Of a stretch of DNA of 64,000 bases, positions 3,205 to 49,016 are shown piece after piece; position 1 is the stretch's first letter, and each line of letters starts with the position of its first letter. The notes under the pieces were generated by a model. It was not told the origin of the DNA. It was given only the letters and a program-made list of their open reading frames with translations, and did not search any database. This DNA comes from an uncultured virus (IMG/VR IMGVR_UViG_3300050131_000019). Its lineage: Duplodnaviria > Heunggongvirae > Uroviricota > Caudoviricetes. Where the stretch lies: IMG/VR virus record IMGVR_UViG_3300050131_000019, positions 1 to 64,000 of that record. The stretch is one strand, 5' to 3'. Made by a program: the position numbers and the translations under genes.

Positions 3205-3278
3205 TGGTTCCGGGTCCACGAATCGAACGTAGGTTAGGAGGATCAAAACCTCCTGTCTTACCACTAAACGAACCCGGA
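3205..3278 (-). tRNA. trnQ: tRNA-Gln (anticodon TTG), CCA encoded
   Basis: Acceptor TCCGGGT/ACCCGGA plus A-CCA. Anticodon arm GGAGG-TTTTGAT-CCTCC. T-loop GTTCGATTC. D-loop AGTGGTA. Confidence 0.93.
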
Positions 3279-4273: not shown

Positions 4274-4602
4274 AGCTGGCTCCCCGAGAATTCAATGCTA
4301 AAAAATAGCTCTACTTCCTCACTATCTCTTTCGGCGGAAAACCCTCCCGTGCGAATGTAGACGCTCTTGGGCTTATCAAGCAAATCAGAAATTAGCCCCT
4401 CGGCAACCTCTTTTATCTTCTCTAGAGTGGGGATAGCTTCTCCCCACTTCCATCCGGTAAGCACCATATAGGCATGTACCTTCTCGAAGTCAAACTCAGA
4501 AAATATTTCCCGTATGATTCTCCGCTTGGCTACCTCTTTACTGATTTTCATAATTCTCTGCTTATCTACATTTTTACTGGTTTTCATAGTAGGTCTCCTC
4601 AC
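4270..4602 (-). CDS. Hypothetical protein, paralog of 10425..10718
   Basis: Shared FDFxKVxAYM..W..P..TGGF pattern. Confidence 0.75.
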   Translation of the reverse strand: MRRPTMKTSKNVDKQRIMKISKEVAKRRIIREIFSEFDFEKVHAYMVLTGWKWGEAIPTLEKIKEVAEGLISDLLDKPKSVYIRTGGFSAERDSEEVELFFSIEFSGSQL

Positions 4603-21021: not shown

Positions 21022-21922
21022 CAATCTTTACAGCGAATTGACTATGCGCAAGCTTTACAGTGACAACCTAGTACAGGGGATGTGACATGAGCGAATGCAA
21101 GCTGCGAGGCGACACGCGAACGGTGGGCAAGTAGCTGGGCCTTGCTCTGGTATTCCGTGCGTGACACGCTACCATCGGACCGCGCTGTGACGCTGTAATA
21201 TGCAGGCATAGACCGCACAGCTTGTACAGGCCGGGATGGTACGTGGAAGTGCACGCTCGGGGCGTGAGGGCCAAACGTAGCAGGATGGGGCTGTATGATG
21301 CGCGTCTGAATCATAGCGAAGCCTTTCCATACAGGATAACTTCGAGAGTTTCAGACAGCACGGTATGTCCATTGCCGTCACCGTAGCCATAGGTCGTAAC
21401 GGCTATTACATTACCGTCACGCTCCGCTATCTTGACAGATAGCACGTCAAGAAAAAAATCGAGGTCAAGGTCTTGTGTTTCCATACACACTCCAAAAGCA
21501 AACCCCGCACCCATCAAGGGATACAGGGTTTTCGGCTTAGATAAAATGCCCCCGTACAGTCTCACAGACCCTACAAAGGCATTTTACCGTTTTGTTGTGT
21601 TCCGCGAATATGGCCCTTACATCTTTTGCGGCTAATCCGCTCCATTTTGCCGCAAGATTCCAGCACCGTGTCACGGTAGCACGCTGGTTTGAGTGGACTG
21701 GTAGACGCTATTGGATACCGCTACCAGTTCTGCAATATCCAAAGCGATTGAAACGGGCACGCTGTCCGATACCTGTACGGTGCGCCGTTCGGACAATTGT
21801 CCGATACGATTGACGATTACTTGGATGGTCATAAGACTCCAATGGGCTTGGATTGAATGGGCTTGTAACCATTCCGCCGCATTAACAGGGTAGCCGTTTA
21901 GCTTGCCCTGCTACTCTGCGAG

Positions 21923-22306
21923 TTACTTTACGACCGGGAGTGAAGCGAGATACTGCGCCGCCTTGACGCGCAAGTCGTTCGCCGGAACGATCTTTCCGTT
22001 TGGTGTTCCATCATCCTTGAGCAAGGGCTGTGCCGCGACAATCGCATCGGCGTTATCCCGAATGTAGGTAACAACCGTAGGGATAAAGGCGGCGATCTCA
22101 AGCCATTGACCCGGATACGCTGAAATGGGGAACTGCCCATTCACGCCATACAAGCCAACCGTGCCTCCCTTGACAGCCTTATGTGTGGCATCCGCCGCGC
22201 GGGGCGAGGAGTGTTTCACTGTGAGCTTGGTTGCCTTTGCTGCGGACTGCGCAACAATCTGCGCTTTCAAAGCTGCAATCTGTGTTTCCATTTCTTGCAT
22301 GGTCAT
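21923..22306 (-). CDS. Hypothetical protein
   Basis: KGGTVGLYGVNGQFPISAYPGQW motif, Ala-rich N-terminal helix. Confidence 0.75.
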   Translation of the reverse strand: MTMQEMETQIAALKAQIVAQSAAKATKLTVKHSSPRAADATHKAVKGGTVGLYGVNGQFPISAYPGQWLEIAAFIPTVVTYIRDNADAIVAAQPLLKDDGTPNGKIVPANDLRVKAAQYLASLPVVK

Positions 22307-39239: not shown

Positions 39240-39596
39240 ATGGACAATTTCATGACTGATTACGAAGAGCTTACCCCGGACCAGATCGCGGAAGAGGCTC
39301 AAGAACGAATTAACAAAGCGGCTGATCTTCAGTTTACTGTAAATACTAAGGGCTGGAATACTCTGCTTGCTACCTTCGAAGAAATGAAGGACGCCCAGAT
39401 CGCCAATTTTATGGCAATCCCCCCAGGTTCCGCGAACGAAAAAGATATCATTGCCGCGCACAACGTTGCGTATACTACAGCTTTTATTCTAAATGAAGTT
39501 GTTAACGCGACTAACCGAGCAATTCAAGATGGGTTCAACGCTCAAGCCGAACTACAATCTTTTAAGAACCCCGAGGTCAGTTCCGAATGGGAATAA
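39240..39596 (+). CDS. Hypothetical head-module protein
   Basis: Lies after the portal, SD AGGA. Confidence 0.7.
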   Translation: MDNFMTDYEELTPDQIAEEAQERINKAADLQFTVNTKGWNTLLATFEEMKDAQIANFMAIPPGSANEKDIIAAHNVAYTTAFILNEVVNATNRAIQDGFNAQAELQSFKNPEVSSEWE

Positions 39597-42500
39597 ATAA
39601 ACTTATAGTGTTTCTTCTCTTGGCGACAGGACTGTGTTATTCACAGTCTGCCCAGAGGATTTCCGTTGCCATACAAAGCCCAGCGGCTGCGGCGGGTTAC
39701 GCTAGAATTATTCCCCATGCCTCTATCTACGTTTGTACATATAACTCTCAGTTGAACTGCTCTTCCGGTAATTACCTTTCTATTTATTCGGATGTAGGTC
39801 TTACGAGCGGAATTGCACAGCCATTGGTTGCTGATTCTGTGGGTGGTTATCAGTATTATATTCAGGCAGGTACGCAGGTAGTCGAGAAGGTTTGTTATAC
39901 GGGGGCGCAGTGCCAAAGCTACGCGGTGTATATAGGAACTAGTAACCTATCCATATCCGGGAATGGCGCTCCTACCCAGACGTGTTCTCTCCCCAATCAA
40001 GGTCAAATCTATATAGATAACCTGAATGGACAGATTTATTCCTGCAACGGGACTATCTGGCAAATAGCTGCCACCACCGCCGTGCCAGCTTCTCCCTCCT
40101 TTGCGATACAGTTTGCTAACTCGGGGGCTACACACTTTCAGGCGGACTCATCTATAACTGTGAATCCAACTACGCACACGTTCACAGCACCGAATGTATC
40201 TGCAAGCACCGTCGTGGCTGGCGCTATATCGCCCGGATTTACAGTCTCAATCAAAGACCCGCGCTGCGGTGGCGCAGTGGATGGGGTAACAGACGATGCA
40301 GCCGCCTGGACGGCTTGTATCGCACTGGCGTCGGCAAATAGCGGAACCGTCACAACGGATGGATTGTCACTGCTGGAAAGCACACCAACGATTCCGAGCA
40401 CTGGAAATTTCAAGATCGAAGGCACAACTCCTGGCGCGGGAATGCTTTTCTCAAATCCATCGGGATGGGCCAGAACGGTCGTCCTCCCGTGGCTTTATGG
40501 ATCCACAATCAATGCGGGAATTTACGTGCCCTCTGGTGCTTCTAATATCACGATTGAGGATATGGCTTTGACCTGCGCACCATCGAGCGCAACAGGTTGC
40601 GGAACGCCAATATTCTTGCTCGATGACAACAACATCACGCTACGTAATAATACCTATGGGGCTGGGATCTGGAGCAACTACGGAAATGGCATTGAGTTTT
40701 TCGGAGGTCACGACCTAACTTTCGATGGGGGAACGATCTTCGGGTATAACTCTGCTGGAATCCGAGGCAACTACTCGTCTGGATTGAGCGGCACGTCCCT
40801 GAGAGTTCATGCGCGGAATCTGAATATTCAAGGCGCTAATCCATCGAGTATATACACCCCCGGATCGTTGGAGTTTTTCAATTCCCAATCAAGCGATTTT
40901 ACCAACAACAATATCGACCAAGGTAATGTGTTGAAACCCGTCTCCAACCCTTGCTGTGGGTACGGCGGACTGTTCTACACGACTGCCAATCATCACATTC
41001 CGATTACGTCGCTCTCTGGCATGGGCCATTCGATGACAGCCACGGTCCCAGGTAGCTCACCTATCCCGATCACGTCCATGACCACCTCTGGGACGACGAC
41101 GACAATTACGGTAGGAAGTACACTCTTTCCGTCAGTTCTCGTTCCCGCCCAGACGGTTCTTTGTGGAAATTATGGAGTTGTTGGAGGCACCGGCACTTTA
41201 CCAGCAAACGGGTATTGCACAATCATCGGAACCAATCAGGTAATGTTCCCAACACCCAGTTATGATGCGACCGGGGCTAATCTGACAAACGCTGTCTTCT
41301 GGCTTTACGGATTCCTTCCCGACATCGGCCAGCAGTTTTACGTTGACCTGGCCGGTGTGTTTAGGGGAAACGCATCCATCAGCAGCCTGACCTACACCGC
41401 CTCTTATCTGACTGGGACGTTGAGCACCGGGCATTACTCAGTGCAGGACATTGGCACCTATTATGCCTGCACAATTGGGGGCATAACCGCGCCCACGTTG
41501 CCAAGCATCACCGCAAACGTAGCTGGTGGAGCAATCACCAGCTACACAGTGGTCAGCGGCGGAGCAAATGCCACCCAGGATTACAGTTTCACCATCACGG
41601 ATTCGACAGGCACAGGGGCAACCACGGGCGCACAGACATTTAATTCCAGTGGGGCATTGACGGCTTTAGCGGCAGGGACAGCTACAGGGTCGGGTTATAC
41701 AAGCCCGACTGTTACCGTGAGTGGTGGGGATGGGCTGAGCGGTAATTATAGCTGCACGGTCGCAAGCGCCGCTCCCGATACATTTACGACTCAGTTGCCG
41801 GGGCTGCATTCCGTGATTCCGGCAGCAGCGGTGGCGACTGCCACGGTTTCCAGACAGTTAGGCGTCTCCACGATGGCAACCGTCACTGGGTATGGTTCTT
41901 TTACGTTTGGCTTGGCGGGCGGAGACACAACGGGAGTCAATCTCTCTAATAGCATCCTGTCCATGACGGGCACGACGACGATCACGGTTACAGTTGGAGC
42001 GGGCATCCTCCCTCCAGTTGGCTCGACGTTCGTCGCGAACATCATAGGCGTTACGGGCGGGACCGGAACCCTGAACGGATATTTCTTCTACTCGACAGTC
42101 GCATCGCCGACCACATTCACTTTCCAGCAGTCCAAGGCTTCCGCTGTTGGTGCGAACGTATCAAGTGCTTATCTAGTGGCGCAGGCTGGCGTAGTTTCCG
42201 CGTTCGATACGTCGAGCGGCAACAAGTACAGTAACACTGGCGGCACGGGGATATACTTTGCAGATTGCAATTTGTGCAGTTCCGAAGGCGATCACTTTTT
42301 CAATATCGATCAGCAAGAGCTAGACACCTCGTTGCCGGTTGGAGCCGTGGCAATGAACGGCGTCATCGGGGGTGTAATTGATGGGGACGTAGTAAACGGG
42401 TCAGCAACAAACTGCTTTGAGGCCGAGATTACCTTTGGGTTGGTCATTTCTGGAAGTTCATGCAAAGATGCTACTGAAAGCGGCATCAAACTAGCCGGGG

Positions 42501-44158
42501 TCTTCAACTACAGCATCGGAGATTATACTCAGACGGGAACCTCAAGGTTTGGCGTCAATATCAACGGAGTTTCTACGGGTGCAACGGGGACGCTCAACAT
42601 TTCCGGCACTACCTCTGTCGCCATAAATCCATATGGCAGCGCGTCCAGCAATCTGATCTTCGGAGGCCCCACGAAGATTTTAGCATCGCAAGGATTTTGC
42701 TTGGAGGATAACACTACCGCATCATCCTACACCGGTCTCGATTGCAACGGAGTCCCGCTGATAGTCAGTGGCACAAACCAGAGTTTCGACAACCTGAGCG
42801 TTGAGAACATTCCAGCATCTAGTCCGGCGATTACCTTGTTAAATTCAACGAACGCATCATTCACAAACCTGATCGCATCTAATCTGTCGAATCTTTTCTA
42901 CACTTCAGGATTCAATTCGAATCCCAACATAAACGGAGGCCAAGTTTCCAATGTGGCCGATCCATACCTTGAAGCCTACCCGGCCTATGTCACCGGGTCT
43001 GTGGCCACTGGGTCCAATGTAATTCAATCCATAAGCAGTACACTTGGCGTGGGCGACATTGTTTCTGACGCGACAGTGTTTGGCGGCTCTGGACACATAC
43101 CAATAGGTTCGGTCGTGCTTTCGGTTAACTCCGGGACGGGTTGCACATCGGCATGTGTGGTCATATCCAACACGGCAACTGGAACCGTTTCGGGGGATAT
43201 ACTTTACGTTTTTGGCTCGGTGACGACGGGTATGAAGTGGTACAACGTAACAGCCACTGGCGGCGCCGGAGCGGGCCAGGGATTCTTGGCGTACTCGATT
43301 CAAGGGCTAGATATGCAGGGTGGCAGTTTCTCGGGCTACTCTGGAAGTGTAATTGATTTGCGTGGCACAAGCGGAACCAGCACACCCAACTCAGTGAAGG
43401 GTGTCACAATCGCAGGCGGGTCTAGAAGCCTTGGCGTGTCTCAGCAAGCGAGCAATACCACTGCAACAGCCAACTCCTTCAGCGGGGCAACGTCCGCCGG
43501 AATCTCCGATCTCACATCGAATCTGGGAAACAGTTATCTAGGCAACTTCTTATCTGGCATAACTGCGCCAACAGCGATCAGCAATGTCAATGCTGTAGTC
43601 ACCGGAAACGTGGCAGGGATAGGCACGGGGACACCAACCTCGGCAAGCATCCCATGCAACGCGAATAGCGTGTCGAATCTTTATTACCAAGCATCGACCG
43701 CCAGCGGCAGACAGCCGTGGATGTGCGATCCTGTGACGGTAACATGGGTACAAGTTCCCGCTCCTAGTGCGGTGCAATTCAACACCGTTAAAACGGTGGC
43801 CAGCGTGCCACTGACAACCTACTCAGGTACGGCTGGTATTGGAACAACTACCCTACGGACTCCGAGTGCGACCGGACTTTTCCAACTGTGTGTCTATATG
43901 GAAGTAGACACGGTGGGAACCGCCGGAAATTTCCAGTTCGGAGTAGGTTACACGTCGGCATTCGGGAGCGCCGCGCACAACAGCAATATCGGGACATCTG
44001 TTGCCGTCAGCACACCGCACGCAACTACATTTCCGGGGTCTGCGTGTTCGACATTTGGGGCTAAAGCTGGCACTAATATCGTGTACCAGATCACGGCTAC
44101 TAGTGTCACGGGCACACCGACAATCGAGTACGGCGCGACGTTGACGCAATTGCAATAG
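39587..44158 (+). CDS. Large tailspike/fiber-like beta-helix protein with signal peptide
   Basis: GAVDGVTDDAAAW pectate-lyase-like entry motif and G/S/T/N-rich beta-helix repeats. N-terminal domain shared with 54718..57318. Confidence 0.8.
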   Translation: MGINKLIVFLLLATGLCYSQSAQRISVAIQSPAAAAGYARIIPHASIYVCTYNSQLNCSSGNYLSIYSDVGLTSGIAQPLVADSVGGYQYYIQAGTQVVEKVCYTGAQCQSYAVYIGTSNLSISGNGAPTQTCSLPNQGQIYIDNLNGQIYSCNGTIWQIAATTAVPASPSFAIQFANSGATHFQADSSITVNPTTHTFTAPNVSASTVVAGAISPGFTVSIKDPRCGGAVDGVTDDAAAWTACIALASANSGTVTTDGLSLLESTPTIPSTGNFKIEGTTPGAGMLFSNPSGWARTVVLPWLYGSTINAGIYVPSGASNITIEDMALTCAPSSATGCGTPIFLLDDNNITLRNNTYGAGIWSNYGNGIEFFGGHDLTFDGGTIFGYNSAGIRGNYSSGLSGTSLRVHARNLNIQGANPSSIYTPGSLEFFNSQSSDFTNNNIDQGNVLKPVSNPCCGYGGLFYTTANHHIPITSLSGMGHSMTATVPGSSPIPITSMTTSGTTTTITVGSTLFPSVLVPAQTVLCGNYGVVGGTGTLPANGYCTIIGTNQVMFPTPSYDATGANLTNAVFWLYGFLPDIGQQFYVDLAGVFRGNASISSLTYTASYLTGTLSTGHYSVQDIGTYYACTIGGITAPTLPSITANVAGGAITSYTVVSGGANATQDYSFTITDSTGTGATTGAQTFNSSGALTALAAGTATGSGYTSPTVTVSGGDGLSGNYSCTVASAAPDTFTTQLPGLHSVIPAAAVATATVSRQLGVSTMATVTGYGSFTFGLAGGDTTGVNLSNSILSMTGTTTITVTVGAGILPPVGSTFVANIIGVTGGTGTLNGYFFYSTVASPTTFTFQQSKASAVGANVSSAYLVAQAGVVSAFDTSSGNKYSNTGGTGIYFADCNLCSSEGDHFFNIDQQELDTSLPVGAVAMNGVIGGVIDGDVVNGSATNCFEAEITFGLVISGSSCKDATESGIKLAGVFNYSIGDYTQTGTSRFGVNINGVSTGATGTLNISGTTSVAINPYGSASSNLIFGGPTKILASQGFCLEDNTTASSYTGLDCNGVPLIVSGTNQSFDNLSVENIPASSPAITLLNSTNASFTNLIASNLSNLFYTSGFNSNPNINGGQVSNVADPYLEAYPAYVTGSVATGSNVIQSISSTLGVGDIVSDATVFGGSGHIPIGSVVLSVNSGTGCTSACVVISNTATGTVSGDILYVFGSVTTGMKWYNVTATGGAGAGQGFLAYSIQGLDMQGGSFSGYSGSVIDLRGTSGTSTPNSVKGVTIAGGSRSLGVSQQASNTTATANSFSGATSAGISDLTSNLGNSYLGNFLSGITAPTAISNVNAVVTGNVAGIGTGTPTSASIPCNANSVSNLYYQASTASGRQPWMCDPVTVTWVQVPAPSAVQFNTVKTVASVPLTTYSGTAGIGTTTLRTPSATGLFQLCVYMEVDTVGTAGNFQFGVGYTSAFGSAAHNSNIGTSVAVSTPHATTFPGSACSTFGAKAGTNIVYQITATSVTGTPTIEYGATLTQLQ

Positions 44159-45925: not shown

Positions 45926-48093
45926 ATGGCCTATACTCCCGCAGTAAATACAGTTACCAGTGGTAACTTTCCTAACGCTTTGGCCGTTTACTATGAGCGT
46001 AAAGCAATTCCAAACCTTAAAGCAAGCACTCCGTTTCTGGGGGCAACAAAGCAGTGGCCTTTGCCGAGGCACTCCGGTAACGTGATTCAGTTCTTCTCCT
46101 ATAACCTCTTGGGCGCGAATGTCTCTCAGACCACCGAGGGTTTCGTGGGTTCTCCTGTTCCCGAGAGCGCAGTCAAGATTCAGGCGACAATCGGTGAACT
46201 TGCTGCTTAACAGCTAACTGGCCGATATAAAATTCCGCTAAATCGGTGAACATCTGTGGTATAATGGTGTTATGCCAACAGAAAATACCGAGCTAACTCA
46301 AATGAAAGATCACACAAAAGCGTATATGGCCGGAGTCCTCGACGGAGACGGTCATCTAGGAATTCAGAAACACGGGCAGTATAGTCCTAGTATACAGGTT
46401 TGTGGTGAGTCTAAATCGCTTATGGAATGGATCGTCCTTAACTTTGGGGGATCAATCCGCAAAGAAAAAATCAAGAGCGGTAAAGACTTCTACAAATGGA
46501 TACTCTACGGGAAGAATTCTCAAAAAGATTTCGTAGAAGGTATCACACCTTTTGTGTTCATAAAAAGATCACAAGCAGAGATTCTCCAAGAGTTTCTTAA
46601 TATCAATCGGAGTGACTACGATCCGGAAAAGAGAGAATCTTACTATCTAGCAATTAGGAAAGCTAGATCATTGAGCAGCGTAGAGACTGACATGCGGAAC
46701 AAACTAGACAATAAACTGGCTTGCGCTTATGCGGCTGGTCTGGTTGATACAGACGGACACATAAATTTATACACGGTTCCCTCGGGAAAGTCTAAAGGTA
46801 GCATACGAACAGGAATAGAAATCGTAAATATCTATAGACCTATTCTCGATGAGCTAGCAAGGCAGTTTGGGGGTCACGTAAGGAAAAGAACAGAAGACGG
46901 GTACAAGACTCGGTATCAGTGGTTCGTTACTGATATGAAATCCGAGGAAAAACTCCTTCTGGCGATGCTCCCTTATATGATTGTGAAGAGAGAAAAAGCA
47001 GAAAATCTTCTCAAGCACCTCCGAGAAAGACTTAGTTTGAAGATACAGCCCGAACTCATAGGTGACTATGAGAGTGTCCCAGTGGGAACGCTGAAGACCT
47101 AAACACGTTTGCAATACGCTGATTACACCAATAGCTCTGACCTGTTCTTGGATACGGCGATTGACGACAAGGGCGCACTTAGCTCTTTGGCCGAGGAAAT
47201 GAACTATCGCCTCGCCCTCACCCTGAATCTGTTGGTCTCCACGGCTGCGGATTCTCTGAATGGCATCGACGGTTCTGTGAATCAGCAGTTGGCAGTCGGT
47301 ACCTATCTTACCGCGTCGAACCTGCGTACCATCGCTCAGCAGCTTGAGTCGGTGAACGTTCGTCCGTTCGAAGCCAACACCTACGCCGGGGTTATCAATC
47401 CTCTGGTTGTGCATGATATCTATAATGACGCCAGCTTCAACGGCCTCACGGATATCATGAAGCGCCAGTCCGATTCTTCGAAGAAGTTGTTCGAAGGTCT
47501 GGATCGTGACGCCCCTCTGGAGTTCGCGGGTATTAAGTTCAAGAGCACCACAACCGCATCGGCTGTGACCATCTCTTCGAACATTTACTATCCCACGTAC
47601 ATCTTCGGTGACGATGCTCTTCTAAGTATCTTCCTCGGTCCTAATCCGGCTGACAAGAACAAGAAGAACTACTCACTGAATATCCAGATGGCTCCCGAAG
47701 GCGGCTCGGTCTCCGACCCGGCTCGCTTGATTGGTGAACTTGCTGCTTAAGCAGCTAATCGGCCAATCTAAAACTCAGCTATATCGGTGAACCTCTCCTA
47801 AAATTTTAGGAGACAATACCGAGGGAAGACTAGGGAAAGTACCTAAACCTAGAACCCGTAACGACTAATACGCTGGGCCTTCGAAAGAAGTGAAGATAGA
47901 GTCTGAGCTATACGGCGACGTATAGAGTGTCTCCGGGGTGATCCGGGGGTGGATTAAGTCCACGATGACCTGAAAAGGCATCTCCAAAACGCAACTGGGG
48001 TGGATTTCATATAACTGTAAGTTCGTGGTCACGCCTCCGCCCGGAGTAGTTATGAGGGCACGCAAGCTCCTGAGCCAGACGTCTTCAAGCTAA
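45926..48093 (+). CDS. Major capsid protein (N4-gp56-like), join(45926..46195,47112..47735,47998..48093), about 329 aa
   Basis: Splicing gives in-frame junctions QATIG|QYADY and PARLIG|GWISYN. An alternative 3' site at G47991 would add QL. Confidence 0.88.
46196..47111 (+). mobile_element. Group I intron 1 in the capsid gene (916 nt) carrying a LAGLIDADG ORF
   Basis: P1 ATCGGT/GCCGAT with U-G at the splice site. P3 TTCCGC/GCGGAA. P4 TCGGT/ACCGA. R element GTAGAGACTG, S element AAGATACAGCC. P9 CTCATAG-GTGA-CTATGAG. Terminal G. Confidence 0.9.
46272..47102 (+). CDS. Double-motif LAGLIDADG homing endonuclease
   Basis: YMAGVLDGDG and YAAGLVDTDG. Confidence 0.92.
   Translation: MPTENTELTQMKDHTKAYMAGVLDGDGHLGIQKHGQYSPSIQVCGESKSLMEWIVLNFGGSIRKEKIKSGKDFYKWILYGKNSQKDFVEGITPFVFIKRSQAEILQEFLNINRSDYDPEKRESYYLAIRKARSLSSVETDMRNKLDNKLACAYAAGLVDTDGHINLYTVPSGKSKGSIRTGIEIVNIYRPILDELARQFGGHVRKRTEDGYKTRYQWFVTDMKSEEKLLLAMLPYMIVKREKAENLLKHLRERLSLKIQPELIGDYESVPVGTLKT
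47736..47997 (+). mobile_element. Group I intron 2 in the capsid gene (262 nt, no ORF)
   Basis: P1 GATTGGT/GCCAATC. P3 CTCAGC/GCTGGG. R element GTAACGACTA, S element AAGATAGAGTCT. P9 CTATACG-GCGA-CGTATAG. Confidence 0.9.
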
Positions 48094-48140: not shown

Positions 48141-48169
48141 TTGACTCAGTGAAGTTTTCGTGGTATAAT
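48141..48169 (+). promoter_or_regulatory. Sigma70-like promoter
   Basis: TTGACT-17-TATAAT with extended TG. Confidence 0.78.
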
Positions 48170-48263
48170 GTAGTTAGGATCAAACTTCCGGTGTCATGAA
48201 CCGGAACACCCGAGGGGAGTTAGCTCCTACTTTCTCCCCTCAAAAATTCTTCTAGGAGGAAGA

Positions 48264-49016
48264 ATGTACGATATTTACGAATATACGAATCTAATTAATA
48301 ACAAGAAGTATGTCGGGCAGAGTATAGATAAAGATACCCGGAGACGGCAGCACTTATACGAGGCTAAAAGGGGTTCTACCTGTCCCTTTCATCGTGCCAT
48401 AAGAAAATACGGAATAGATAACTTCTCTTTTAGAATTATTGAATCTGTAGATACTCAAAAAGGCGCTGACGATCAAGAAGACTTTTGGATAAACGAACTA
48501 GACACGCGAAGCCGGGATCGAGGATATAATCTCAGGGGTGGGGGGATAGCAGGTCTCTTAGCTGAAGAGAGTAAGCAAAAAATCAGTAATTCTCTTACTG
48601 AGTACTACTCCGATGAAAAGAACCGCGAAACTATTAGGGATTCCTTGAAGAATTACTATGAGCAGAACCCGGATCGTGTAGAGAAGATACGGGAGGAGTC
48701 CAGAGAGAATATAAAGGAAAGAAAGAGAAATGACTTGGGTCAACTTCTTCCGTCTTCGGGTGTTCCCGTTCCCGAGAAGACTCCAGAGGAGAAAAAAGCT
48801 ATTAATAAAAGAAAAAGCGAAATGATGCTTTCCAAGTCTCCCGAAGAAAAGGCTCGGATCAGCAAGAAGTTAAGTGATGCCCAGAAAGCCAGATATGCTG
48901 CTATGACCCCGGAAGAAAAAGAAGCCTTTTGTAAAAGAAAACGAGAGATTTCAGTTGCATATCACGCCAAAAAGAAATCAGGAATCCAATGCACAGTAGC
49001 CCAAGAAAATTCGTAA
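48264..49016 (+). CDS. GIY-YIG homing endonuclease
   Basis: IYEYTN..KYVGQS..RRRQH..AIRKYG..GYNLRGGG, with NUMOD-like C-terminus. Confidence 0.88.
   Translation: MYDIYEYTNLINNKKYVGQSIDKDTRRRQHLYEAKRGSTCPFHRAIRKYGIDNFSFRIIESVDTQKGADDQEDFWINELDTRSRDRGYNLRGGGIAGLLAEESKQKISNSLTEYYSDEKNRETIRDSLKNYYEQNPDRVEKIREESRENIKERKRNDLGQLLPSSGVPVPEKTPEEKKAINKRKSEMMLSKSPEEKARISKKLSDAQKARYAAMTPEEKEAFCKRKREISVAYHAKKKSGIQCTVAQENS

What the first reader, a model, noticed from the sequence alone, without database searches (positions are those of the whole stretch)
46190..48000. Twin related group I introns at two Ile-Gly sites of the major capsid gene
Seen: both introns begin with the identical GAACTTGCTGCTTAA followed by (G)CAGCTAA, and both sit after AT(C/T)GGT. 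Their guide sequences match their own exons (ATCGGT/GCCGAT versus GATTGGT/GCCAATC). One carries a LAGLIDADG ORF and the other has none. An in-frame TAA follows each 5' splice site, so full-length capsid requires both splicing events. Known: the classic phage group I introns are mostly in DNA-metabolism genes. Inference: intragenic intron transposition with retargeting of the guide sequence. The near-identical 5' ends might also allow skipping of exon 2.
Basis: partly seen in the sequence, partly recalled or inferred. Interest (0 to 1): 0.7.

Follow-up and report, generated by a model that had tools for sequence, protein, structure and literature searches.

The report
Two group I introns split capsid gene
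The major capsid gene of this soil phage is cut into three pieces by two self-splicing group I introns, members of an intron family that has invaded many different positions of the same gene in related phages.

Summary
An N4-type major capsid gene is split into exons 45926-46195, 47112-47735 and 47998-48093. Intron 1 (46196-47111, 916 nt) carries a two-domain LAGLIDADG ORF. Intron 2 (47736-47997, 262 nt) has no ORF. Joining the exons gives a 329-aa protein that aligns end to end with 70 of 70 intron-less homologs. A metatranscriptome contig joins 46195 to 47112 exactly, with no mismatch. Intron 2 matches Rfam Intron_gpI over the full model at 46.3 bits, below the cut-off of 50; four relatives pass it. 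A nine-intron alignment shows strong covariation.

The "intragenic transposition" reading is only partly right. The two introns share only their first ~32 nt: a hairpin inside the P1 loop plus the guide GCCRAU. Their ribozyme cores are 67% identical, the lowest value in the family. I read this as two different introns of one family that exchanged or share a 5' "address" module. ATYGGT occurs exactly twice in the spliced mRNA, at the two splice sites.

In related phages the same gene holds 0 to 4 or more introns at about 20 positions.

Splicing at intron 2 and skipping of exon 2 remain untested. Capsid-gene introns and multi-intron phage genes are already known.

The parts
45926..46195 (+). Capsid gene exon 1 (aa 1-90). 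Its last 6 nt, ATCGGT, form the 5' strand of P1 of intron 1.
   Evidence: ORF list. tblastn with the intron-less homolog P0001 covers aa 1-93. An RNA contig covers 46082-46195 and then jumps to 47112.
46196..47111 (+). Intron 1, a 916-nt group I intron that starts GAACTT and ends in G. Helices:
- P1-loop hairpin 46202-05/46211-14
- guide 46221-26
- P3 46233-38/46694-99
- P4 46243-48/46286-91
- P5 46249-54/46266-71
- P6 46292-94/46677-79
- P7 46683 and 46685-89 with 47046-51 (one A.C mismatch)
- P8 46701-07/47032-38
- P9 47055-61/47066-72
   Evidence: Helix table. Partial Rfam match of the 3' core, 18.6 bits. The RNA contig skips exactly these 916 nt, GA..TG. Homologous core blocks in family members.
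46255..46265 (+). TGTGGTATAAT, an extended -10-like element in the P5 loop of intron 1. It ends 7 nt before the ORF's first ATG. Similar elements sit in the P5 loops of ORF-bearing relatives (L009, L013).
   Evidence: Read from the sequence. The two-hexamer scan did not list it because there is no -35 hexamer. Promoter function is inferred.
46272..47102 (+). Two-domain LAGLIDADG homing-endonuclease ORF of 276 aa; a second possible start is Met11 at 46302. Domain 1 lies in the P6 loop and domain 2 in the P8 loop. The linker (..SSVETDMRN..) is encoded by P6'-J6/7-P7-P3'. The C-terminal tail is encoded by P8'-J8/7-P7'-P9.
   Evidence: Pfam LAGLIDADG_3 on aa 16-91 and LAGLIDADG_1 on aa 155-233. 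PHROG 5046 at 6e-31. Core positions. The same split layout occurs in L118, L124, L140 and L021.
47112..47735 (+). Capsid gene exon 2 (aa 91-298). Its last 7 nt, GATTGGT, form the 5' strand of P1 of intron 2.
   Evidence: 132 homologs at E <= 0.001. tblastn covers aa 91-298. An RNA contig covers 47112-47589.
47736..47997 (+). Intron 2, a 262-nt ORF-less group I intron. Helices:
- P1-loop hairpin 47742-46/47751-55
- guide 47762-68
- P3 47774-79/47872-77
- P4 47784-89/47817-22
- P5 47794-801/47806-13
- P6 47823-25/47855-57
- P6a 47830-33/47849-52
- P7 47861 and 47863-66 with 47900-04
- P8 47879-82/47887-90
- P9 47908-14/47919-25
- P9.1 47931-37/47942-48
- P9.2 47949-53/47959-63
- last nucleotide G at 47997
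   Evidence: Rfam RF00028 at 46.3 bits, E 4e-10, model positions 1-253. Covariation count on alignment A4. MFE fold z = -4.79. Helix table.
47998..48093 (+). Capsid gene exon 3 (aa 299-329 plus the TAA stop).
   Evidence: tblastn covers aa 299-329. Homologs read LIG|GWISYN. The spliced product is 329 aa.
48264..49016 (+). Free-standing GIY-YIG homing-endonuclease gene just downstream of the capsid gene, with a sigma-70-like promoter at 48141-48169. This is context. It is a possible helper for the mobility of ORF-less intron 2, which is inferred and not tested.
   Evidence: Pfam GIY-YIG. TIGR01453 at 65 bits, cut-off 56. Promoter match 11 of 12. Homologs lie downstream of the capsid gene in 18 related loci.

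Best explanation
Two self-splicing group I introns interrupt an N4-gp56-type (HK97-fold) major capsid gene. Both must be removed from the mRNA to give the 329-aa protein.

How each intron works:
- Each defines its 5' splice site by pairing a 6-7-nt guide (GCCGAU or GCCAAUC) with the exon end AUCGGU or GAUUGGU. The exon's last U pairs with G.
- Each ends in a G.
- A TAA in the P1 loop stops ribosomes before they enter the ribozyme.
- Intron 1 also encodes a two-domain LAGLIDADG homing endonuclease. Its reading frame is threaded through the ribozyme: domain 1 in the P6 loop, the linker across P7/P3', domain 2 in the P8 loop. It probably has its own -10-like promoter in the P5 loop.
- Intron 2 has no ORF.

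Origin. The two are not duplicates. They belong to different branches of one intron family ('family A'), which occupies many positions of this capsid gene in related phages. What they share is a 5' module of about 32 nt: a P1-loop hairpin plus the guide. I infer that this module passed between the two co-resident introns, by short-tract gene conversion or a module swap. I also infer that it works at both sites because the only two AUYGGU hexamers of the mRNA lie there.

Shown: junctions, core helices, family covariation, the RNA junction of intron 1, and the mosaic similarity.
Inferred: self-splicing without helpers, endonuclease activity and its promoter, the direction and mechanism of the module exchange, and splicing of intron 2 in vivo.
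For: Junctions:
- The spliced product is 329 aa. It aligns across both junctions with 70 of 70 full-length homologs, 5 of them gap-free.
- IGQ[YF] is present in 63 of 70 homologs and IGGW in 68 of 70.

RNA:
- One contig of metatranscriptome run X1 is 592 nt long with 0 mismatches and depth 11.3. It joins 46195 directly to 47112, skipping 916 nt.

Ribozyme:
- Intron 2 matches RF00028 over model positions 1-253 at 46.3 bits, E 4e-10.
- Relatives of the same family score above the cut-off of 50: L115 65.5, L124 53.0, L123 66.8 and L013 50.5 bits.
- On nine ORF-less family introns, 91.7% of cells pair, against 29-46% when partners are slid. 26 of 46 pairs change on both sides, and 0 of 500 shuffles reach these values.
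- The MFE fold of intron 2 recovers P1, P4, P5, P6, P8 and P9, with z = -4.79.
- In intron 1 all core helices pair, with changes that are compensatory relative to intron 2: P3 UUCCGC/GCGGAA versus CUCAGC/GCUGGG, P6 GCU/AGC versus GGG/CCC, and P9.

P1:
- Own-exon pairing of 6 bp or more was found in 18 of 29 family-A introns, which lie at 8 of the 10 sites listed in the full report.
- Non-own exons reach 6 bp in 13.7% of 776 pairings.
- L008 has exon GAUCGGU with guide GCCGAUC at the same site as intron 2, a compensatory change.

Mosaic similarity:
- The first 32 columns are identical at 28 positions.
- The 110-nt core is 67% identical. Intron 1 is last of 20 in similarity to intron 2, while L008_s298 is 93% identical.
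- The intron 1 ORF is only 32-34% identical to the closest two-domain ORFs in the family and 29% to L021.
- AT[CT]GGT occurs exactly twice in the 990-nt spliced coding sequence, at the two 5' splice sites.
- In IMG/VR the 15-mer marks introns only in the three contigs that carry this same gene, 6 of 51 hits.

Capsid identity:
- TIGR04387 matches 75 of 78 homologs.
- The AF2 model has pLDDT 87.8, and its best fold match is the phage N4 capsid 9e99_A at E 4e-15.
Against: - Intron 2 is 3.7 bits below Rfam's gathering score, and intron 1 gives only a partial 18.6-bit match.
- P7 of intron 1 has an A.C mismatch next to the presumed G-binding pair, so it may need a helper such as its own protein.
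- No RNA contig crosses 47735|47998, so splicing of intron 2 rests on comparison only.
- The RNA evidence is a single assembled contig from one run. An intron-less DNA allele of the same strain contaminating the library cannot be formally excluded.
- The module exchange is inferred from two sequences in one lineage. Part of the shared module, the 6-nt guide, is forced by the shared target.
- My core-identity figures come from ungapped blocks found by fuzzy matching. Block 3 of intron 1 needed 8 substitutions in 22 positions.
- Automatic junction calls look wrong for about a quarter of the 41 non-redundant introns.
Confidence: 0.8

Rival explanations
1. Whole-intron intragenic transposition. 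One intron copied itself from one Ile-Gly site to the other, then gained or lost the ORF and adjusted its guide.
For: The 15-nt starts are identical, and 28 of 32 columns match at the 5' end. Both sites have the hexamer ATYGGT, which occurs nowhere else in the spliced mRNA. Both introns belong to family A.
Against: Core identity is 67%, the lowest of 20 family comparisons for intron 2. Intron 2 ranks 11th of 20 in similarity to intron 1. P3, P6, P7 and P9 differ by several compensated changes. Intron 1's P7 type (GACUG/CAG.C) and its ORF split over P6 and P8 link it to a different sub-branch: L118, L124_aa21, L140 and L021. Similarity drops right after the guide.
Confidence: 0.08
2. Guide-directed reverse splicing placed an intron carrying the GCCRAU module into the second AUYGGU of the capsid mRNA, followed by copying back into DNA. 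The core difference arose by later recombination with another family member.
For: The only two AUYGGU hexamers of the mRNA are both occupied. The exon sequence around the two sites is otherwise unrelated, which does not suit a roughly 20-bp endonuclease site. A review describes reverse splicing as needing only 4-6 complementary bases and lacking direct proof (PMC3984707, passages seen).
Against: I looked for no reverse transcriptase, and none is known to me in this record. The scenario needs two events, insertion and then core replacement. The same pattern follows from a DNA-level exchange of the 5' module.
Confidence: 0.1
3. The shared 5' end is convergence. Both introns need the same guide for the same hexamer, and a stop codon plus a hairpin in the P1 loop are selected independently.
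For: In-frame stops follow the 5' splice site within a median of 2 codons in 20 introns of the family. The guide is dictated by the target.
Against: The guide accounts for only 6 nt. The other roughly 24 nt match at 22 of 23 positions with one indel. That is closer than intron 2 is to its positional counterpart in L008 (19 of 23, counted by eye), although those two cores are 93% identical. By inspection of the 29 family-A introns listed, no other has a hairpin between the splice site and the guide.
Confidence: 0.05
4. The similar 5' splice sites serve regulated skipping of exon 2, giving a 121-aa exon 1 + exon 3 product.
For: Exons 1 and 3 join in frame. The guide of intron 1 can pair with the end of exon 2 at 6 of 7 positions including wobbles. 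Three similar introns with exon skipping are reported for phage Twort (passage in PMC3073962).
Against: No data bear on it here. The product would lack the spine helix and most of the HK97 fold (model), so a function is not obvious.
Confidence: 0.05

Closest known systems
[quoted passage not shown] I saw only its title in reference lists and a one-sentence description in PMC3073962; the paper itself is not held.
   Same: Several related group I introns lie inside one phage protein gene, all of which must be removed. This raises the possibility of exon skipping.
   Different: - Here the gene is the major capsid gene.
- The two introns are similar only in a 32-nt 5' module.
- One intron carries a LAGLIDADG gene.
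- The same gene in relatives carries introns at many other positions.
- Skipping is untested here.
Mycobacteriophage LittleE capsid intron and BAKA/Optimus tail-gene intron (PMC3706429; abstract and passages seen)
   Same: A group I-type intron in a capsid gene, with splicing shown by RT-PCR. An endonuclease-bearing intron and an ORF-less intron share a nearly identical 5' segment (156 bp at 98%).
   Different: - There the two introns lie in different genes of different phages, with one intron per gene.
- The endonuclease gene is on the opposite strand.
- Here both introns sit in one gene, and the shared segment is only about 32 nt and includes the guide.
Synechococcus LSU rDNA introns with LAGLIDADG genes that run through the ribozyme core (PMC1995217; passage seen)
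   Same: The ORF starts in a peripheral loop (P6) and continues through P7, P3 and P8 into P9, so core nucleotides both fold and code. The paper calls this uncommon.
   Different: - Here the host gene is a phage protein gene.
- In intron 1 and four relatives the second LAGLIDADG domain sits in the P8 loop, so the inter-domain linker is encoded by P7/P3'.
rDNA group I introns proposed to spread to new sites by reverse splicing (PMC1299323, abstract seen; review PMC3984707, passages seen)
   Same: Related introns lie at different sites of one gene, each with a guide matched to its own exon.
   Different: The target is a phage mRNA rather than rRNA. The window offers a sharper case: one guide module, two identical hexamers, two different ribozyme bodies.
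Intron-dense jumbo gut phages ('Jug' phages, PMC12880540; passages seen)
   Same: Many small group I introns, about 206 nt on average, split essential phage genes. Splicing is supported by metatranscriptome reads.
   Different: In the passages I saw, the introns named are in terL, nrdD and polymerase genes. I saw no capsid gene with multiple sites there, and I did not view the supplementary tables.

Membership tests
Group I self-splicing intron (Rfam RF00028 Intron_gpI) | P1: the 5' exon ends in U, paired with G of an internal guide sequence. | tested here: met
   Intron 1 pairs at 6 of 6 positions and intron 2 at 7 of 7, with the terminal U.G in both. There is a compensatory exon/guide change between the window and L008 at the same site.
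Group I self-splicing intron (Rfam RF00028 Intron_gpI) | The last intron nucleotide is G. | tested here: met
   G at 47111 and G at 47997. The skipped stretch in the RNA contig reads GA..TG.
Group I self-splicing intron (Rfam RF00028 Intron_gpI) | Conserved core P3-P9, including the P3/P7 pseudoknot, supported by covariation. | tested here: met
   Alignment A4 holds nine introns including intron 2. 91.7% of cells pair, 26 of 46 pairs change on both sides, and 0 of 500 shuffles reach this. In intron 1 every helix pairs except one A.C in P7.
Group I self-splicing intron (Rfam RF00028 Intron_gpI) | Covariance-model score at or above Rfam's gathering score of 50 bits. | tested here: inconclusive
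   Intron 2 scores 46.3 bits (E 4e-10, full model). Intron 1 scores 18.6 bits on its 3' part only, because the ORF splits the core. Four introns of the same family in relatives score 50.5-66.8 bits.
Group I self-splicing intron (Rfam RF00028 Intron_gpI) | Precise excision and exon ligation in RNA. | tested here: met
   Met for intron 1 only. One metatranscriptome contig joins 46195|47112 with 0 mismatches over 592 nt. For intron 2 no contig reaches the junction, so it is untested.
Group I self-splicing intron (Rfam RF00028 Intron_gpI) | Guanosine-dependent self-splicing in vitro. | not testable with these tools
   Needs a bench assay.
LAGLIDADG homing endonuclease (Pfam PF00961 / PF14528) | Two LAGLIDADG domains, each with the motif's acidic residue. 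| tested here: met
   PF00961 scores 30.2 bits (cut-off 23.1) on aa 155-233. PF14528 scores 23.2 bits (cut-off 22.5) on aa 16-91. The motifs ..GVLDGDGH.. and ..GLVDTDGH.. are read from the translation. Identifying the catalytic Asp in them is from recall.
LAGLIDADG homing endonuclease (Pfam PF00961 / PF14528) | Cleaves the intron-less allele at or near the insertion site. | not testable with these tools
   Needs a cleavage assay on an intron-less site such as the one in L011.
N4-gp56 family major capsid protein (NCBIfam TIGR04387) | Profile match at or above the curated cut-off of 60 bits. | tested here: inconclusive
   The single exons give no hit. The 93%-identical intron-less homolog P0001 scores 31.2 bits, E 1.3e-7. 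75 of 78 aligned homologs match at E <= 0.001, the best at 2.6e-60.
N4-gp56 family major capsid protein (NCBIfam TIGR04387) | HK97-type fold close to the phage N4 capsid protein. | tested here: met
   The AF2 model of P0001 has pLDDT 87.8 and pTM 0.81. The best Foldseek match is 9e99_A, the phage N4 capsid, at E 4.4e-15 and TM 0.65.
Collaborative homing (ORF-less intron plus neighbouring free-standing endonuclease; the cyanophage psbA case is recalled, not read here) | The free-standing endonuclease cuts the intron-less insertion site, and the intron protects its own genome. | not tested
   Circumstantial only. A GIY-YIG gene lies 266 nt downstream of intron 2. Its closest homolog (50% identity) is in L008, which shares the site-298 intron. 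More distant homologs also follow capsid genes without that intron.

The most novel reading that the evidence does not exclude
The 5' end of these introns (P1-loop hairpin plus guide) acts as a portable address label. It can move between co-resident introns, or steer reverse splicing. This would be how one intron family came to occupy about 20 positions of a single capsid gene. The window would catch the process in the act: the only two AUYGGU hexamers of the capsid mRNA each carry the same label, grafted onto two clearly different ribozyme and endonuclease bodies.
Probability: 0.3. Interest if true: 0.8.

Novelty: new variant of a known kind. Interest (0 to 1): 0.6.

Why it matters
How group I introns reach new sites is an old open question. 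The review seen says that reverse splicing has no direct experimental support. This capsid gene family offers a compact natural test set:
- One ribozyme family sits at many sites, with each guide matched to its own exon.
- Close relatives differ by the presence or absence of single introns.
- In this phage, one guide module sits on two different introns at the only two matching hexamers.

The finding also shows that the most highly expressed late gene of a phage can tolerate two to four or more introns. It further explains why gene callers report many capsid fragments for this clade: one search lists numerous exon-sized proteins whose ends lie at about positions 54, 90 and 298.

Tried and rejected
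- Rfam at gathering thresholds found no intron in the window. The match appeared only with E-value thresholds. Searching RF00028 over the whole 77.8-kb record found no further copy.
- A DNA search of the record with intron 2 found only itself and the first 60 nt of intron 1.
- Runs X2-X4 gave no contigs on the stretch. In X1 nothing crosses 47735|47998 and no 46195|47998 joint was listed. This says nothing either way.
- The first AF2 model, from 14 close homologs, was useless at pLDDT 31.5. A profile search of PDB sequences found nothing. A deeper 78-sequence alignment solved this.
- I looked by eye for a P10 pairing between the 3' exon and the guide flank and found none convincing.
- I did not assign a group I subgroup. 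There is no P2 and no P7.1/7.2, but no tool here classifies subgroups.
- Pfam and NCBIfam on the single exons gave no hits.
- Literature searches for capsid or N4-like genes with multiple group I introns found single capsid introns and giant-virus cases, but nothing on this clade. This is not proof that none is in print.
- The Landthaler & Shub paper is not held.
- Earlier notes of this scan: none for this genome.
Full report
**What is there**

The window is part of a 77.8-kb IMG/VR virus record. Between 45926 and 48093 lies a gene in three pieces.
- Exon 1 (45926-46195) ends ...ACA ATC GGT.
- Exon 2 (47112-47735) ends ...TTG ATT GGT.
- Exon 3 (47998-48093) starts GGG TGG ATT.

Intron-less homologs of 329 aa read ...VKIQATIG-QYADYTNSS... 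and ...SDPARLIG-GWISYN..., exactly across the two proposed junctions. I joined the exons by coordinates in a script. The product is 329 aa. It aligns over both junctions with 70 of 70 full-length homologs; 5 alignments are gap-free and the best is 93% identical.

The protein is a major capsid protein of the N4 type.
- 75 of 78 aligned homologs match TIGR04387, although the closest homolog P0001 scores only 31.2 bits against a cut-off of 60.
- An AF2 model of P0001 (pLDDT 87.8) has the phage N4 capsid 9e99_A as its best fold match, at E 4e-15.

- The 15-mer GAACTTGCTGCTTAA occurs only at 46196 and 47736. Chance expects 0.09 matches.
- Both copies follow AT(C/T)GGT. Both are followed by an in-frame TAA after 4 codons.
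- Each intron has a guide that pairs with its own exon: 6 of 6 positions for intron 1 and 7 of 7 for intron 2, with the terminal U.G.
- Intron 1 holds a 276-aa two-domain LAGLIDADG ORF. Intron 2 holds none.

**They are group I introns**

- Intron 2 aligns to the whole Rfam Intron_gpI model at 46.3 bits, E 4e-10. This is 3.7 bits under the gathering score.
- Four introns of the same family in related phages pass the gathering score, at 50.5-66.8 bits.
- I aligned nine ORF-less members (alignment A4). I wrote the P3-P9.1 structure from intron 2, with P7 as a pseudoknot. 91.7% of cells pair, against 29-46% with slid partners. 26 of 46 pairs change on both sides, and 0 of 500 shuffles reach the observed values.
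- An unconstrained MFE fold of intron 2 recovers P1, the P1-loop hairpin, P4, P5, P6/6a, P8 and P9-9.2, with z = -4.79.
- In intron 1 the ORF hides the core from the Rfam model, which gives only an 18.6-bit match on the 3' part. All helices can still be located:
  - P3 46233-38/46694-99
  - P4 46243-48/46286-91
  - P5 46249-54/46266-71
  - P6 46292-94/46677-79
  - P7 46683 and 46685-89 with 47046-51
  - P8 46701-07/47032-38
  - P9 47055-61/47066-72
- All of these pair fully except for one A.C in P7. Several carry changes that are compensatory relative to intron 2.

**RNA evidence**

One public metatranscriptome run (X1) holds half of the sampled words of the stretch. When its contigs were laid on the window, one 592-nt contig with no mismatch ran from 46082 to 46195 and continued at 47112-47589. 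It skips exactly the 916 nt GA..TG.

Caveats:
- It is one assembled contig from one run.
- DNA can be present in RNA libraries.
- No contig reaches the intron 2 junctions.

Contigs inside both introns (46457-46744 and 47778-47982) are also present.

**Anatomy of intron 1**

The ORF (46272-47102) occupies 831 of the 916 nt.
- Its first domain (aa 16-91) lies in the P6 loop.
- The linker ..SSVETDMRN.. is encoded by P6'-J6/7-P7-P3'.
- The second domain (aa 155-233) lies in the P8 loop.
- The tail is encoded by P8', J8/7, P7' and P9. The stop codon is 9 nt before the 3' splice site.

Five other family introns align to the intron 1 ORF over both domains: L113, L118/L149, L124_aa21, L140 and L021. 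In four of them (all but L113, which the block search skipped) P3' and J8/7 lie about 410 nt apart, against about 40-50 nt in most single-domain or ORF-less members. An ORF running from P6 through P7, P3 and P8 into P9 has been described as uncommon in cyanobacterial rDNA introns (PMC1995217, passage seen).

The P5 loop contains TGTGGTATAAT, ending 7 nt before the first ATG. Comparable -10 or full promoter-like elements sit in the P5 loops of L009 and L013. That this is a promoter for the endonuclease gene is inference. The two-hexamer scan did not list it.

**The wider picture**

I mapped an intron-less capsid protein onto 98 related loci: the window, 17 loci from IMG/VR and 80 from metagenomes. 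These reduce to 85 non-redundant loci.
- 33 of the 85 have at least one insertion of 150 nt or more.
- Of 48 loci with a near-complete gene, 29 have no insertion, 10 have one, 7 have two, 1 has three and 1 has four.
- These counts are lower bounds. Some gaps hold two introns. In L008 a 25-nt mini-exon lies between two introns.

Insertions fall at about 20 approximate positions. Ten sites are backed by an own-exon P1 of at least 6 bp. In P0001 numbering they lie at about aa 22, 28, 39, 54, 90, 91+1 nt, 116, 298 and 304, plus one near 311.

At least three ribozyme types occur. The window's type is the one I call family A.

Close relatives differ by single introns.
- L008 is 94% identical in exon 2. 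It lacks the site-90 intron but has the site-298 intron plus another 25 nt downstream.
- L009 is 93% identical. It has neither window intron but has one after aa 22.

In-frame stops follow the 5' splice site within a median of 2 codons.

**Are the two introns twins?**

Only at the 5' end.
- The first 32 alignment columns are identical at 28 positions. The part before the guide matches at 22 of 23 positions with one indel.
- Over 110 ungapped core positions the two are 67% identical. Intron 1 is the least similar of 20 family members to intron 2. Intron 2 ranks 11th of 20 for intron 1.
- The intron at the same site in L008 is 93% identical to intron 2 in the core. Yet it differs from intron 2 at 4 of the first 23 nt (counted by eye).
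- The intron 1 ORF is only 32-34% identical to the closest two-domain ORFs in the family and 29% to L021.
- By inspection of the 29 family-A introns listed, a hairpin between the splice site and the guide occurs only in intron 1, intron 2 and the L008 site-298 intron.
- The exact 15-mer marks introns only in the three IMG/VR contigs that carry this same gene, 6 of 51 hits.
- AT[CT]GGT occurs exactly twice in the 990-nt spliced coding sequence, at the two splice sites. The surrounding exon sequence is otherwise unrelated.

The simplest reading is that two different family-A introns reside in one gene. A short 5' module, hairpin plus guide, has passed between them, most likely from the site-298 lineage to the site-90 intron. 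It is usable at both sites because both present AUYGGU. I cannot decide between three routes:
- short-tract gene conversion after both introns were already in place;
- a chimeric intron that was then able to settle at site 90;
- guide-directed reverse splicing.

**Comparison with what is known**

- Capsid-gene group I introns are in print. LittleE has RT-PCR proof, and PMC3706429 cites a Tuc2009 capsid intron.
- A phage gene with three similar introns and exon skipping is known from Twort.
- An ORF-bearing and an ORF-less intron sharing a near-identical 5' segment are known from LittleE and BAKA.
- Intron-dense phage genomes with metatranscriptome support are known from Jug phages.

What I did not find in three literature searches:
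- a capsid gene family with this many insertion sites;
- a shared guide module on two different intron bodies within one gene.

The call is therefore a new variant of a known kind. The given finding is real and its mechanism is ordinary group I splicing. The evolutionary reading needs correction. The family-wide pattern is the more interesting result.

Noticed in passing
window 21857-21920 (-): Rfam Twister-P5 ribozyme match at 51.6 bits (cut-off 37.6, E 8e-8). It lies directly downstream of the minus-strand ORF 21923-22306, in the gap before ORF 21311-21565. A twister ribozyme in a phage genome may deserve its own look.
   Followed up: partly
window 48141-49016 (+): A free-standing GIY-YIG homing-endonuclease gene (TIGR01453, 65 bits) with a near-consensus sigma-70 promoter (11 of 12, TG extended), right after the capsid gene. 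Homologs at 30-50% identity follow the capsid gene in 18 related loci, some with intron-less capsid genes. The closest homolog is in L008, which shares the site-298 intron. This may be collaborative homing with ORF-less intron 2.
   Followed up: partly
L008:1392-1416: A 25-nt mini-exon (GGATGG...AAGT) lies between two family-A introns. They are inserted after aa 298 and after aa 307 of the capsid gene, and each has its own matching guide: GCCGATC and GCTTAAC.
   Followed up: partly
L010:2251-2474, L021:3488-3694, L124:4161-4387, L141:4064-4280 and others: Two further small ORF-less group I intron types of about 200-230 nt occur in the same capsid gene family. They have J8/7-P7 ..GATAGTCCGAAC.. 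and 3' ends ..GAGTAACAAAnnG. They sit at other sites, around aa 41, 250, 275-279 and 301-311. Of the four examples named here, only L124:4161-4387 was scored above the Rfam cut-off (50.9 bits); the same type also passes in L133 (61.4) and in a different L141 intron at 4352-4530 (57.5).
   Followed up: partly
proteins P0121-P0268: Many 50%-identity cluster representatives of this capsid family are exon-sized fragments. Their ends lie at about profile positions 54-55, 89-95 and 297-298. Gene callers are therefore splitting intron-bearing capsid genes across public metagenomes.
   Followed up: no
window 46196 versus L013:2243 and L014: The common intron site in relatives is 4 nt downstream of the window's site 1..ATTGGTCAGT| with guide GCTGACC, in L013, L014, L120, L126 and L141. 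The window reads CAA instead of CAG there, which would weaken pairing with that guide.
   Followed up: no
window 39587-44158 (+) and 3208-3278 (-): A 1523-aa Ser/Thr/Gly-rich ORF, probably a tail fibre or spike by its composition, lies upstream of the capsid region. A tRNA gene is also present.
   Followed up: no
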